64,000 bases of DNA. It comes from Leucoraja ocellata (taxonomy: Eukaryota). Numbering within the stretch: position 1 is the first letter of the stretch; each line of letters opens with the position of its first letter. Shown in pieces: positions 15,201-57,200 of the stretch. The stretch lies in contig JAWMAR010001278.1 of NCBI GenBank assembly GCA_036785375.1, forward strand, positions 124,001 through 188,000, given 5' to 3'. The position numbers were made by a program.

Positions 15201-18200
15201 ACACAAAATACACAAACACAAAATACTTGAAATATGAATTAAAGTGACGAGTGGAAAGGCTTGGGGGCTGTGCAAAGATTACGTGGGAGGGGGGTGGTGG
15301 GGAGGCAAGTCAGTCTCAGTCTACACTATGACAGAAGGGGGAGGAGTTGTACAGTTTGATAGCCACAGGGAAGAACGATCTCCTGTGGCGTTCTGTGCTG
15401 ATGGCACTGGCCACCACCTATTAGTAGAACATCTGCAGCTACTGAAGATAGACACAAAATGCTGGAGCAGACAATGCTGGAGAAACTCAGCGGGTGAGGC
15501 AGCATCTATGGAGCGAAGGAAATAGTCAACGTTTCGGGTCGACACCCTTCAGACTGATGTGAGGGTGGGGGCGGGAAGAAAGGAAGAGGAGGAGACAGTG
15601 GGCTGAGGGCGAGCTGGGAAGGAGAGGAGAAAGCCAGGACTACCTGATATTAGAGAAGTCAATGTTCATACCGCTGGGGTGTAAACTGCCCAAGCGAAAT
15701 ATGAGGTGCTGCTCCTCCAATTTACGGTGGGCCTCACTCTGGCCATGGAGGAGGCCCAGGACAGAAAGGTCAGATTGGGAATGTGAGGAAGAGTTGAAGT
15801 GCTGAGCCACTGGGAGATCAGGTTGGTTATTGCAATGCTGGAGTAACTCAACGGGACAGGCAGCATCACTGGAGGGAAGGAATAGGTGACATTTTGGGGT
15901 GAGACCCTTTTTCAGACTGGATATATTTGTATAAGGTACTTGGTACACAGATACACCCTGGTACACTGTTTAACCATCGAGAACATCCGCAACACACTGC
16001 CAAGGGCAGTGATGGAGGCAGATAGGACAGATCCTCCAGATGCGCCAAAGATTTCCCGGGATTCGGGATGCACTCACACACCTGAGAGTGTCACCTGTGT
16101 GTGTGCGGCCAGGTGCAACCCACCCGGAGAGCTCACCTGGCACCTCCCCCTCGCCAACCTCAGCGGAAATCAAACCCACGGACGTCTCCACATCTGGCAG
16201 GTGGCAAGCGGGCATCTGGTGAATGGCTCCCTCACTCTGAGATGGGGTGAGGGAGGGGACAACGTGTGCTCAGTCCGAAACCGGCACGGGGAAGCCATGT
16301 TCACGCTGTATCTGTGGACGGAAGGTGAGGACATTTATGGGCGAGGGAAGTCAGAGAGCCAGAGAGTCATACTGTAATGGCCATTTCTAACTTTTACAAT
16401 GTCCAACTTTCCATTGCCATTACTACACAGGTAAGTAGGAGTGATCTTACACAGACCAAAACAGAACAGATCTTCCAGTCATTCTTTATTGAAGTAGTTG
16501 TACAAACAAAGTGATGAATGTACCAGGTTCTCTTTATTCTCATACAAGTTGTAACTTCCTGTCCTCCCGATCTGTGTGAACTGTGTACCCTCCACCTCCT
16601 GTAGCTGGTCTGAATCACTCCCTGTCCACTAAGCCCATGTGTTACACCCCTCCATTCATCAAATGACCGCCACCAAGTGTCCAAAATAATAGCGCTAGAA
16701 ATATCTAGACAAACTAATATAATACGCCAACAGTAGCTGGCTGAAACATAAATGACTCCTACACATACCGTGTGGAAACAGGCCCTTCAGCCCAACTTGC
16801 CCACACCAACCAACATGTCACACCTACACCAGTCCCACCTGCCTGCATTTGGCCCATACCCCTGCAAACCTGACCTCATTGTGTTCCTGCCTAATTCTCC
16901 AGTGATGGCAACATGGCCAGAGGATCTTGGATGACGGAGGTACTGAAGGAAATTCACATTAGGCAGGAAATGGTGTTGGGTAGACAGATGGGACTGAAGC
17001 TGATAAATCCCCAGGGCCTGATGACCTGCATCCCAGGGTACTTATGGAAGTGGCTCAAGAAATTGTGGACGCATTGGTGATCATTTTCCAATGTTCTATA
17101 GATTCAGGATCAGTTCCTGTGGATTGGAAGGTAGATAATGTTTTCCCACTTTTTAAGCATGGTTTGAGAGAGAAAACAATGAATTATAGACCAGTTAGCA
17201 TGACATAGGTGGTGGGGAAGGTGCTGGAGTCAATTGTAAAAGATGAAATAGCGGCACATTTGGATAGCAGTAACAGGATCAGTCGGAGTCACATTGATTT
17301 ATGAAGGGGAAATCATGCTTGATTAATCTTCTGGAATTTTTTGAGGATGTAACTGGGAAAATGGACAAGGTAGAGCCAGTGGATGTAGTGTACCTAGACT
17401 TTCAATAAGTACTAGACTAAGTGGGACCCATTGGGTCCCAAACACCACGGGGAGTGTGTGTTGGGGAGGGGTGGGTGAGAAAGTGTGTATGTGGGCTGGA
17501 GGGGTTTCCAAGGGGGGAGGAGGAGGGATGTGGGGGAGGAGGGGGTGTTGTGTGGGTGGGCTGTGGGAGGGAGGATGTGGGAGGAGGAGGGACTTGTTTG
17601 GGGGAGGGTTGTTTGAGGGCAGGGGGTGTTGTGGATGAGGGGTTTTCAGGTGGGGGAGGGTGTGTGTGGGGTGGGGATTGTGTGGGGGGGGAGGGAGTTT
17701 GTGTGTGTGTGGGGAGAGGCGGGGGTTGTGGGAGGAGGGGGGATTGTGCGGGGAGGGGGGATTGTGTGGGGAGGGGGGATTGTGTGGGGGAGGGGGGATT
17801 GTGTGGGGGAGGGGGGAATGTGTGGGGGAGGGGGTGTTGTGGGGGAGAGGGGTGTGTGGGCTGGGTGTGTGGTGTGGGGGTGCATTGTGGGGGTGTGTCA
17901 TCAGGGAGGTTGTGAGGGGTGTGTGGGAGGTAAGGGTGTGTGGGGAGAACGGTTGTGGGGTGGTGAGGGGTATGTGGGGGGGGGTTTTGGGGAGAGAGGT
18001 CTGTGGGCAGGGGGTGTGTGAGGGAGGGGTGTGGGGGGTGTTAGGGTGTGGGAGGGAGGGGTGTGTGGCAGGGGAAGGGTGTAGGCAGGGGGGAGAGAGC
18101 TCAGAGAAAAGACGGGGGAAGAGCCATGGGGAAGTGTGCAGCATTACGGGGAGGGGGTGCGGGAGCCAGCGAGGAGGACCAGAGGGGAAGGGGTTGGGGG

Positions 18201-54200: not shown

Positions 54201-57200
54201 GCACCCCCAACCCCTTCGCCTCTGGTCCTCCTCGTCGGGCTCCNNNNNNNNNNNNNNNNNNNNNNNNNNNNNNNNNNNNNNNNNNNNNNNNNNNNNNNNN
54301 NNNNNNNNNNNNNNNNNNNNNNNNNNNNNNNNNNNNNNNNNNNNNNNNNNNNNNNNNNNNNNNNNNNNNNNNNNNNNNNNNNNNNNNNNNNNNNNNNNNN
54401 NNNNNNNNNNNNNNNNNNNNNNNNNNNNNNNNNNNNNNNNNNNGTTCTCTTCAAGTTCCTTGATTCTAATATTCCGCCACTCGACCTCTATAGGAGAACA
54501 GCACTTGCATTGTTTTTCTTGTCGTATCTCCCACCATGTTTTGACCGCTCATCATCACTGTGCCTGCTGGCGGTGGGCGGTCCCCCTCTCAGTAAATCAT
54601 CAACGTCAGTGAGTGACACGTTCGGTAACAGTGTCAAAGGCCACCAGGTAATGTTGAATGTCACACGAGTGATTCAGTATAAATCCGATTGGGTGGGAAT
54701 GAGCAGCTTTGGAAAAGGTTCGGTCCAACACTATACATACACGGGAATCTCGACATGTCAGAGTTTTTGAGGATTCGGACACGGTACCGTTCCGTTCACT
54801 TACCTGCTAGTTTGCCGGTCACAAAATAATTGGACTGAATTGATGGAGAATACATCTCAAGGCCTAAACTGCTTACTGCCCACCATTTCTTGGCCTGATA
54901 CAATGGGGTTTCGGTCGAGTGATGTCGCCATTCTACAATCATCTGCTAGTTTTCTGTGTACATCATAAATGGCATGGGGTTAATGTGAAACAAACCTCAC
55001 GGCCTGAGCTGCTTTCTGTCCACCATTGGTCTGTTGCATCTTCATTTCCATCTTGTCATGTCGGCATCATTGGCACATGTTTGAACGTTACCATCTCATC
55101 TGGCGTCATCTGGTGAGTTACATAGAAACATAGAAAATATGTTTCACATCTGTAGTGGTTAGTTTAGTTTAACATATGTAGTGGAGTTTAACATCTGTAG
55201 CGGTTAGTAGCTGGGGAATATTCGGAGGGATAGGTTATACAGACATTTGGATGGGCAAGGGGTGATTAGGGATAGTCAGCATGGTTTTGTACGTGGGAGG
55301 TCGTATCTCACAAATCTATTGGTTTTTGCTGAAGACTTGACCAAAAAGGTTGATGAGGGCAGAGCTGTGGATGTTCTGTACATGGACTTCAGTCAGACGT
55401 TCGGCAAGGTTCCGCATGGTTGGCTGCTCTGGAAGGTTAGATTGCATGGGATCCAAGTAGAGATAGCTGAACGGATAGAACATTGGCACCATGGAAGGAG
55501 ACAGAGTGTGATGGTGGAAAGTCACTACTCAGACTCGAGGCCTGTGACTGGTGGTGTGCCTCAGGATTCGGTGCTGGGCCCGTTACTGTTAGTCATCTCC
55601 ATCAATGATTTGGATGAGAACATACAGGGCATGATCAGCAAGTGTGCTGAAGATACAAATGTTAGTAGTTTTGCAGTTAGTACAATGGTTGTGAAAGGTT
55701 GCAGCGGGATCTAGATAGATTGGCCAGGTTGGCGGAGGAATGGTTGACGGAATTTAATAAAGAAAAGTGTGAGGTGGTGCATTTATTGACGTCGAACAAA
55801 GGCTAACCATGGTCATTGGTCATCGGCAAGTCTCAGATGCTGACAATCTGAAATAAAAACAGTAAATGGTAGGTCTCTGCGCAGTGTTCTAGAGCAGAGG
55901 GATCTAGGAGTATAGGCGCATGGTTCCTTGAAGGTCGAGTCGCAGGTAGATAAGGTGGTCAAAAAGGCTTTTGGCACTTTGGCCTTCATCAGTCATTGTA
56001 TTGAATTTGGAGTTTGGAATGTCATGCTACAGTTGTATAAGACGTTCGTGAGATTGCATTAAAAATATTGTGTTCAGTTCTGGGCAACATGTTATAGGAC
56101 ATATGTTGTCAAGCTTGAAAGGGTGGAGAAACCAATTAAGAGGATGTTGGCAGGATTAGAGGGTGTGAGCTGCAGGGAGACATTGAGTAGGCTGGGTCTC
56201 TATTCGACGGAGGAGGATGGGAGACCTTATAGAAGTATACAAGATCATGAGAGGAATAGATCGAGTAGATGTGCAGAGTATTTTACCCAGAGTAGGAGAA
56301 TCGAGGACCAGAGGACATAGGTTCAAGGTGAAGGAGAAAATATTTAATAACTAATCGGAGGGATAACTTGTTCACACAGAGGGTGGTGGGTGTATGGAAG
56401 AAGCTGCCAGAGGATGTAGTTGAGGCAGGGACTGGCCCATCGTTTAAAAATCTGTTGGGCAGTTACATGGATAGGACAGGTTTGGAGGGTTAAGGCATGT
56501 GGGACTCATATAGCTGGGACATTGTTGGCCTGTGTGGGTGAGTTGCGTCGAGGGGCCTGTAATACGCTATAACTCGATGAGATGCATAAAGTATCTTGCC
56601 CAGAGTAGGTGAACGAAGGGGAAGCGATTTAATGTAAATCTAAGTGGTACCTTTTGACACAAAGCTTGGCTGCATTGGACAAGCTGCAAGAGGAGGCAGT
56701 TGAGGCGGGGACTATCCCTACGTTTAACAGACATTTAGAAAGATACGAGGACAGGACAGATTTAGGACAAATGGGACCAGTGTAGCGTGGACATGTTGGC
56801 CGCTGTAGGTAAGTTGTGCCGAAGGGCCTGTTTTATGTTTTATCACTCTCTGACTATGACTGTTTGCCACTGCTGGCTGGGACAATGGAATCATCTCATG
56901 GATAGACAAAAATGCTGGAGAAACTCAGCGGGTGAGGCAGCATCTAAGGAGAGAAGGAATATGCGACGTTTCGGGACGAGACCCCTCTTCGAGACCCTTC
57001 TTTACGTGGCCCATTCCTCCTCTCCCCAGATGCTGCCTCACCCGCTGAGTTCTCCAGCATTTTTGACTACCTTCTATTTTTGCAGCATCTGCAGTTATTT
57101 CATAAACGATTAAACTCGTGAGTCAGTATTAAACATTATTTCAAAAATGCATGGAGATCACGTTTAACTATTGCAATATAGTCCGACCAAGTATATGAAT

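What the first reader, a model, noticed from the sequence alone, without database searches (positions are those of the whole stretch)
18161..54243. 36-kb inverted duplication gives one Siglec ectodomain two alternative TM-ITIM tails (potential flip cassette)
Seen: the visible inverted repeat begins in the intron between the last Ig exon (ends 16324) and the TM exon. Both arms hold complete, open, splice-intact TM, cyto1 and ITIM exons (23122-25688 +; 49259-46637 -), and no Ig exons appear in 54.4-64 kb. By-eye count: 9 differences in 356 coding nt, 7 of them amino-acid changing, including a new extracellular juxtamembrane Cys (DKGF to DKCF) and an ITIM change (VVYAKL to VVYANL). Established: long inverted repeats mediate recurrent NAHR inversions and gene conversion, and mammalian Siglec clusters evolve by inverted duplication and conversion between paralogues. 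Inference: a crossover in the ~5 kb of arm upstream of the TM exon would invert the interior and attach the other tail, leaving an intact gene in either orientation. The mundane alternative is a tail-to-tail paralogue whose Ig exons are hidden in the gap.
Basis: partly seen in the sequence, partly recalled or inferred. Interest (0 to 1): 0.75.

Follow-up and report, generated by a model that had tools for sequence, protein, structure and literature searches.

The report
Inverted duplicate of a Siglec tail
A skate Siglec-like inhibitory receptor gene is followed by an inverted, roughly 95%-identical second copy of its last three exons, but that copy runs straight into an assembly gap, so it is most likely the end of a neighbouring duplicate gene and not a switchable tail.

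Summary
Window 18162-54243 is a near-palindrome. The left arm is 18162-33557 and the right arm 54243-36396, with 12,185 alignable bases at 95.4% identity and a 2.3-2.8 kb unique spacer. Both arms carry open, AG/GT-intact TM, cyto1 and ITIM exons. These differ at 9 of 356 nt, 7 of them amino-acid changing.

The sequence is skate-like (Rajiformes), not human.

The flip-cassette reading is not supported.
- The right arm ends at a contig end, 1.84 kb short of where its own last Ig exon would lie. The left counterpart just beyond that point is a G-rich low-complexity array.
- In the 5 kb upstream of the TM exon the longest perfect match is 124 bp, and the best 782-column window has 36 differences.
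- The arms carry private LINE insertions or deletions.
- The two tails show pN/pS of 1.02, and the exons are no more similar than their introns.
- Both tails keep the ITIM and the second Tyr motif.

Most likely this is an old, fixed, tail-to-tail segmental duplication in an expanded skate Siglec cluster, ordinary for this family.

The parts
2849..2888 (+). Leader exon of the left Siglec-like gene (ATG at 2849, phase-1 donor)
   Evidence: tblastn of P0001; sequence and donor read
3225..3599 (+). V-set exon. It has Lys (AAA, 3536-3538) at the position of the sialic-acid-binding Arg
   Evidence: Pfam V-set 2.3e-12 and Ig_CD22 3.9e-06; boundaries; 34 of 37 homologues have Arg at that position
4056..4349 (+). 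C2-set exon (C2a)
   Evidence: Pfam C2-set_2 1.2e-09; 90% identical to P0001; boundaries
8464..8745 (+). Intact I-set/C2-type exon (C2b copy 2)
   Evidence: Pfam I-set 1.1e-09; boundaries
13314..13595 (+). Intact I-set/C2-type exon (C2b copy 4), part of the tandem duplicate
   Evidence: Pfam I-set 3.7e-10; boundaries
16040..16324 (+). Last ectodomain exon (phase 1-1). No Pfam match, but homologous to a membrane-proximal domain present in 10 of the 37 skate/ray Siglec-like proteins
17345..18100 (.). G-rich low-complexity array just outside the left arm. Its right-hand counterpart would lie in the N gap
   Evidence: Tandem Repeats Finder and sequence
18162..33557 (+). Left arm of the inverted repeat
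23122..23218 (+). TM exon, left (DKGFSIWKP...)
24143..24209 (+). cyto1 exon, left
25497..25688 (+). ITIM exon with stop codon, left (VVYAKL ... VEYAEL)
25935..28575 (-). Left-only LINE fragment (RVT_1, zf-RVT), 247 nt after the left stop codon
33558..36395 (.). Spacer. Unique apart from a TE copy at each edge and short nested repeats
36396..54243 (-). Right arm of the inverted repeat. It ends at the contig end
46637..46828 (-). ITIM exon with stop codon, right (VVYANL ... VEYAEL)
48114..48180 (-). cyto1 exon, right (identical to the left copy)
49163..49259 (-). TM exon, right (DKCFSIWKA...)
54244..54443 (.). 200-N assembly gap that cuts off the right arm. Not filled

Best explanation
This is an old, fixed, tail-to-tail (3'-to-3') inverted segmental duplication inside an expanded Siglec-like gene cluster of a skate.

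The left arm holds the last three exons of an apparently complete gene: leader, V-set, C2-type exons, TM, and a cytoplasmic tail with an ITIM and a second Tyr motif. That architecture is one of an inhibitory receptor whose phosphorylated tyrosines would recruit SH2 phosphatases. This function is inferred from the motifs, not shown.

The right arm is the 3' end of a second, convergently oriented copy. Its upstream intron and any Ig exons are cut off by the contig end at 54243 and lie in the gap or on an unplaced contig.

Since the duplication, the arms have diverged by 4.6% and gained or lost LINE pieces independently. They were partly homogenised once over the 3-kb tail segment. Nothing flips: each tail belongs to its own copy.
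For: Shown:
- The arms are 95.4% identical over 12,185 columns, with private kb-scale indels that carry reverse-transcriptase fragments.
- Right-arm homology continues to the last base before the N run. The left sequence just beyond the homologous point is a roughly 0.8-kb G-rich low-complexity array, a typical cause of contig breaks.
- The left last Ig exon ends 1,837 bp beyond the homologous point.
- The family is large in skates: 37 hits, many annotated as Siglec, CD33-like or MAG-like in Amblyraja, Leucoraja and Rhinoraja. Many of these sit on contigs of only 30-400 kb.
- The locus also has a 4.87-kb tandem duplication of similar identity, 94-96%.
- Derived amino-acid changes split evenly, 4 on the left and 4 on the right, when polarised with P0001, P0002 and P0024.
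- The tail segment 22707-25934 is less diverged (2.95%) than the outer part of the arms (5.31%, p=1e-6) and the inner part (4.05%, p=0.009). Introns there are as similar as exons, which fits an old conversion tract.

Inferred: that the arm continues far enough into the gap to include Ig exons.
Against: - No Ig exon lies on the minus strand in the 9.6 kb after the gap, and there is no 95%-level homology to 1-18161 there, only TE-level hits of 76-91%.
- No database protein carries the right-arm tail. One search returned 2 hits of 123 candidates, the best 87% identical. One search returned 0 of 25.
- No protein identical to the left gene was found either (best 72% in the V-set), so these absences say little.
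- pN/pS between the tails is 1.02 and coding divergence (2.5%) matches the local non-coding divergence (3.0%, p=0.74). There is therefore no sign that either tail is under constraint.
- Intactness of both copies is only weakly unexpected by chance (P=0.07-0.18).
Confidence: 0.5

Rival explanations
1. The duplication is partial. It ended in the intron upstream of the TM exon, so the right arm is an orphan three-exon tail with no ectodomain of its own: a gene relic drifting neutrally.
For: - pN/pS is 1.02 and the exons are no more conserved than their introns.
- No Ig exon follows the gap.
- The neighbouring tandem duplication has a breakpoint inside the C2a exon, so duplications at this locus do not respect gene boundaries.
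- No protein with the right-arm tail was found.
Against: - The visible arm end is a contig end, not a loss of homology.
- Derived replacements are symmetric, 4 and 4, rather than concentrated in the supposedly dead copy.
- All five splice sites and the reading frame are intact, although P=0.07-0.18 by chance.
Confidence: 0.3
2. Non-allelic homologous recombination between the outer 5 kb of the arms inverts the interior. Both orientations then segregate in the population, and the single ectodomain is joined to one tail or the other.
For: - The geometry is correct.
- The arms are over 10 kb and about 95% identical, the lower edge of what mediates recurrent rearrangements in humans (passages of PMC2583991).
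- Human inversions between inverted duplicates of 94% average identity are documented, as is one that exchanges first exons of AQP12A and AQP12B (passages of PMC3961182).
- There are signs of past exchange between the arms.
Against: - The longest perfect match upstream of the TM exon is 124 bp. The best 300-, 500- and 782-column windows have 8, 20 and 36 differences.
- In the cited mouse-cell work, cutting uninterrupted homology from 232 to 134 bp lowered recombination 20-fold. The human 94% case has a 782-bp block at 99.9%.
- Divergence of 4.6% with private LINE indels argues that exchange is rare.
- The two tails are functionally near-equivalent: both keep both Tyr motifs and neither TM has a charged residue.
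- There are no orientation data at all.
Confidence: 0.07
3. This is an assembly artefact: two haplotypes or two distant paralogues wrongly joined head-to-head within the contig.
For: - The family is hard to assemble. Many homologues sit on small contigs.
- There are two N runs in the window.
- The right arm abuts a scaffold join.
Against: - Both arms and the spacer lie in one N-free stretch, 11003-54243.
- 4.6% divergence with kb-scale private indels is far above ordinary heterozygosity.
- The 2.3-kb spacer is unique and not palindromic. A fold-back or haplotype mis-join would not leave such a spacer.
Confidence: 0.08

Closest known systems
Inverse duplication of the mammalian CD33-related Siglec cluster (Cao et al. 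2009, Immunogenetics; only the title was seen, in the reference list of PMC2915791)
   Same: Siglec genes multiplied by inverted duplication, leaving paralogues in opposite orientation.
   Different: That event covers a whole cluster and is ancient. Here only 15-18 kb arms holding three 3' exons are visible, in a skate, and the outer end is hidden by a gap.
Paired primate Siglecs evolving by gene conversion: Siglec-5/14 and Siglec-11/16 (passages of PMC6288428; abstract of PMC5701461 in the listing)
   Same: Neighbouring Siglec paralogues exchange sequence. Here the tail segment is significantly less diverged than the rest of the arms.
   Different: In the primate pairs the ectodomains are homogenised and the tails differ in sign (inhibitory versus activating). 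Here the tails are the duplicated part. Both carry the ITIM, and neither TM has a charged residue.
Human polymorphic inversions mediated by inverted repeats, e.g. HsInv0241 (swaps first exons of AQP12A/B) and HsInv0209 (7-kb duplicates, 94% identical) (passages of PMC3961182)
   Same: A crossover inside inverted duplicates inverts the interior and can exchange exons between paralogues.
   Different: Those cases have orientation genotypes and high-identity blocks (782 bp at 99.9%). Here the best 782-column window upstream of the TM exon has 36 differences, and nothing is known about orientation.
Large sex-chromosome palindromes of primates (abstract of PMC8327919 in the listing; near-identity of their arms is recalled, not checked)
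   Same: Two inverted arms around a unique spacer, with genes inside the arms.
   Different: Those arms are kept nearly identical by ongoing conversion. These are 95.4% identical with private LINE indels.

Membership tests
Siglec (sialic acid-binding Ig-like lectin) | N-terminal V-set Ig domain of the Siglec/CD22 type | tested here: met
   Pfam V-set 2.3e-12 and Ig_CD22 3.9e-06 on exon 3203-3613. The best database relatives are annotated Siglec, CD33-like or MAG-like.
Siglec (sialic acid-binding Ig-like lectin) | Conserved Arg in the V-set domain that binds the sialic-acid carboxylate (the role of this residue is recalled) | tested here: not met
   The window has Lys (YFFKVDF, codon AAA at 3536-3538). 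34 of 37 homologues have Arg at the aligned position.
Siglec (sialic acid-binding Ig-like lectin) | One or more C2-type Ig domains between the V-set domain and the membrane | tested here: met
   C2-set_2 and I-set matches on exons 4056-4349, 8464-8745 and 13314-13595. The last exon, 16040-16324, has no Pfam match and its fold was unusable.
Siglec (sialic acid-binding Ig-like lectin) | Binding of sialylated glycans | not testable with these tools
   Needs a binding assay.
CD33-related inhibitory Siglec | Cytoplasmic ITIM (I/V/L/S-x-Y-x-x-L/V/I; consensus recalled) plus a second, membrane-distal Tyr motif, and no charged residue in the TM | tested here: met
   VVYAKL / VVYANL and VEYAEL are present in both arms. 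The TM sequence is VLLTAGIILMAVLAGFII.
Inverted low-copy repeats that mediate recurrent inversion (NAHR substrate) | Inverted arms of at least 10 kb with at least 95-97% identity (PMC2583991 passages) | tested here: inconclusive
   The arms are 15.4 and 17.8 kb, but only 12.2 kb is alignable, at 95.4%. This is the lower edge.
Inverted low-copy repeats that mediate recurrent inversion (NAHR substrate) | A stretch of uninterrupted identity of about 200 bp or more in the place where the crossover must fall | tested here: not met
   The longest perfect run upstream of the TM exon is 124 bp. The only run over 200 bp (295 bp) lies downstream of the genes, at 29504-29798.
Inverted low-copy repeats that mediate recurrent inversion (NAHR substrate) | Both orientations observed among individuals | not testable with these tools
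   One assembly only. No reads and no eukaryotic genome collection were available.
Homogenised palindrome (arm-to-arm gene conversion) | Arms nearly identical | tested here: not met
   95.4% identity with 48 gap openings and kb-scale private indels.

The most novel reading that the evidence does not exclude
The right arm has no ectodomain of its own. The interior 18.2-54.2 kb segregates in both orientations in the skate population, so one Siglec-like ectodomain is inherited with either of two ITIM tails. One tail has an extra juxtamembrane Cys. This would be an inversion polymorphism acting as a tail switch.
Probability: 0.05. Interest if true: 0.6.

Novelty: new member of a known kind. Interest (0 to 1): 0.2.

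Why it matters
If the favoured reading holds, this adds one more example of Siglec-type receptor clusters growing by local inverted and tandem duplication with occasional conversion. It is of note only because it is in a cartilaginous fish, where the searches listed no paper with Siglec in its title. The practical lesson is that the arm boundary is an assembly boundary, so gene content cannot be read from it.

Tried and rejected
- Looking for a transcript or annotated protein with either tail. The left ITIM exon against longer proteins gave 2 hits of 123 candidates, neither identical. The right ITIM exon against proteins of similar length gave 0 of 25. This is uninformative, because the left gene is not in the database either (best 72%).
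- Folding the last ectodomain exon with a 10-row alignment gave mean pLDDT 44.9. The model is unusable and no fold search was made, so the Ig nature of that exon rests on homology and its Cys/Trp pattern only.
- A fold-back origin with a palindromic centre was rejected. The spacer shows only short nested repeats.
- Selection on the tails could not be shown. pN/pS is 1.02 on 9 differences, which has too little power.
- An activating/inhibitory paired-receptor reading was rejected. Both TM segments lack a charged residue and both tails have the ITIM.
- Programmed or somatic flipping was considered. Nothing recombinase-like lies in the arms or spacer; there are only reverse-transcriptase fragments.

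Not done:
- The joined, spliced protein model was not built or searched. Exons were handled one at a time.
- The N runs were not filled.
Other copies of this locus and orthologous loci therefore stayed unchecked.
- Supplementary files of papers were not seen.
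Full report
WHAT THE WINDOW IS. The window has two N runs, 10866-11002 (137) and 54244-54443 (200). Its open frames are full of reverse-transcriptase-type repeats. Searched exon by exon, the V-set exon finds 37 proteins of 90 candidates. 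The closest are annotated Siglec, CD33-like or MAG-like proteins of the skates Amblyraja radiata, Leucoraja erinacea and Rhinoraja longicauda, then of rays. The best identity is 72%. The left ITIM exon finds 2 of 123 candidates, both from A. radiata, at 87% and 79%. I take the contig for a skate or close relative, not human. No protein identical to any exon was found, so the species and the gene model remain unnamed.

Self-BLAST and a global alignment give a left arm 18162-33557 and a right arm 54243-36396. There are 12,185 aligned columns at 95.4% identity. Ten indels are 30 bp or longer, the largest being left-only 25935-28575 and right-only 37240-40990 and 41459-42706. These private pieces carry reverse-transcriptase domains. 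Through a repeat copy the arms may reach 33852/36200. The remaining roughly 2.3 kb of spacer is unique apart from short nested repeats.

The three tail exons sit at these positions, left / right:
- TM: 23122-23218 / 49259-49163
- cyto1: 24143-24209 / 48180-48114
- ITIM plus stop: 25497-25688 / 46828-46637

All splice dinucleotides are intact in both arms. There are 9 differences in 356 nt, 7 of them amino-acid changing. No Ig exon lies on the minus strand or anywhere beyond 16.4 kb. This was tested with 7 window peptides and with all 37 homologues. The few other hits are single-query matches of 42-52 bits.

THE LEFT GENE. Leader 2849-2888, V-set 3225-3599, C2a 4056-4349, C2b 8464-8745 and 13314-13595, and a last ectodomain exon 16040-16324 are all phase 1 with AG/GT sites. 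They fit the phase of the TM exon. The locus is battered:
- A 4.87-kb tandem duplication (4124-8989 copied to 8987-13839, 94-96% identical) has its 5' breakpoint inside the C2a exon.
- Two further C2b copies are split by a 0.4-kb repeat insertion, and one is also frameshifted.
- The V-set domain has Lys where 34 of 37 homologues have Arg.

WHY THE ARM END IS NOT A BIOLOGICAL END. Read in reverse complement, the right arm matches the left arm up to the very last base before the N run. In the left copy, the sequence just outside that point (17345-18100) is a G-rich low-complexity array, the kind of sequence at which contigs break. The last Ig exon of the left gene ends only 1,837 bp beyond the homologous point. 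After the gap there is no 95%-level match to 1-18161 in either orientation, only repeat-level hits of 76-91%. A round 200-N run beside a 137-N run suggests a placeholder of unknown size; this is inference. The window therefore cannot say whether the right copy has its own Ig exons. 'One ectodomain with two tails' is an artefact of where the contig stops.

COULD IT FLIP? The geometry is right. The substrate is poor.
- In the 4,960 bp upstream of the left TM exon the longest perfect match is 124 bp.
- The best 300-, 500- and 782-column windows there have 8, 20 and 36 differences.
- In passages of the review PMC2583991, cutting uninterrupted homology from 232 to 134 bp lowered recombination 20-fold in mouse cells. 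Rearrangement-prone repeats are described there as more than 95-97% similar.
- Passages of PMC3961182 describe human inversions between inverted duplicates. One exchanges the first exons of AQP12A/B. One lies between 7-kb, 94% duplicates, whose likely breakpoint is a 782-bp block at 99.9%. No such block exists here.

An inversion polymorphism is therefore possible but unfavoured, and it would be a known kind of event. Nothing recombinase-like lies in the arms or spacer.

WHAT THE DIFFERENCES SAY. Between the tails, pN/pS is 1.02 (7 changes at 269.3 sites; 2 at 78.7 sites). Coding divergence (2.5%) equals local non-coding divergence (3.0%, Fisher p=0.74). Three skate outgroups (P0001, P0002, P0024) were used, with four ray proteins where alignable. 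On this basis the left tail has derived S>G, A>P, N>K and K>M, and the right tail has derived S>C, G>R, G>E and D>A. That is 4 against 4. VVYANL is the older form of the ITIM.

At the arms' own substitution and indel rates, the chance that 356 nt plus 10 splice bases escape any disabling change is 0.07-0.18. Intactness is thus only a weak hint of constraint. Both tails keep both Tyr motifs and an uncharged TM, so a swap would change little apart from the extra Cys.

TRACES OF EXCHANGE. The 3.2-kb tail segment, exons and introns alike, is less diverged (2.95%) than the outer part of the arms (5.31%, p=1e-6) and the inner part (4.05%, p=0.009). A 295-bp perfect run at 29504-29798 exceeds all 2,000 simulations, whose maximum was 271. 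This fits an old conversion event, as known for primate Siglec pairs (passages of PMC6288428). Local differences in mutation rate are not excluded.

VERDICT. This is a real, old, tail-to-tail inverted segmental duplication in an expanded skate Siglec-like cluster. My estimates for the readings are:
- The right arm is the end of a second copy whose front lies in the gap or off-scaffold: 0.5.
- It is an orphan tail: 0.3.
- It is an inversion polymorphism that swaps tails: 0.07.
- It is an assembly artefact: 0.08.

The one-contig continuity, the 4.6% divergence and the unique spacer all argue against an artefact.

LIMITS. No reads and no eukaryotic genome collection were available. The N runs were left untouched. 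Paper supplements were not seen. An AlphaFold model of the last ectodomain exon was unusable (pLDDT 44.9). The literature searches listed no paper with Siglec in its title. I opened only the whale-shark genome paper, which names Siglecs once (PMC8455134). I cannot say whether other papers deal with Siglec loci of cartilaginous fish.

Noticed in passing
window 3536-3538 (V-set exon 3225-3599): The V-set domain reads YFFKVDF. It has Lys (AAA) where 34 of 37 skate/ray Siglec-like homologues have Arg, the residue that binds sialic acid (role recalled). The ectodomain may therefore not bind sialic acid in the usual way.
   Followed up: partly
window 4124-8989 and 8987-13839: A 4.87-kb tandem duplication (94-96% identical, similar to the inverted arms) has its 5' breakpoint inside the C2a exon. 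The second C2a copy (8987-9229) lacks its acceptor and about the first 31 codons.
   Followed up: yes
window 5191-5379 + 5803-5907, and 10092-10270 + 10679-10786: Two of the four C2b-type exons are split by a roughly 0.4-kb repeat insertion. The second also has frameshifts and an in-frame stop. The insertion predates the tandem duplication.
   Followed up: partly
window 60001-60918 (+): A rhodopsin-family GPCR frame (Pfam 7tm_1) has an in-frame stop just upstream at 59998-60000 and another at 60595-60597. It is probably a pseudogene.
   Followed up: partly
window 22707-25934 versus the rest of the arms: The tail segment is significantly less diverged (2.95%) than the outer (5.31%) and inner (4.05%) parts of the arms, and its introns are as similar as its exons. 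This suggests an old conversion tract.
   Followed up: partly
window 29504-29798 / 45450-45156: A 295-bp run of perfect identity between the arms, longer than in any of 2,000 simulations. Its nature was not examined.
   Followed up: no
window 25935-28575: A left-only LINE fragment lies 247 nt after the left stop codon. The first poly(A) hexamer after the left stop (26090) lies inside it. The right copy's first hexamer is at 46299, so the two copies would have different 3' UTRs.
   Followed up: partly
window 34923-35516: Short nested inverted repeats lie in the spacer: 34923-35014 against 35425-35516 at 95.7%, and 35012-35198, which is self-complementary. They are copies of a small repeat also seen at 57.0 and 59.7 kb.
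   Followed up: partly
proteins: Many skate Siglec-like gene models in public annotations sit on contigs of only 30-400 kb. Several are marked partial or low quality, so the family appears hard to assemble in skates generally.
   Followed up: no
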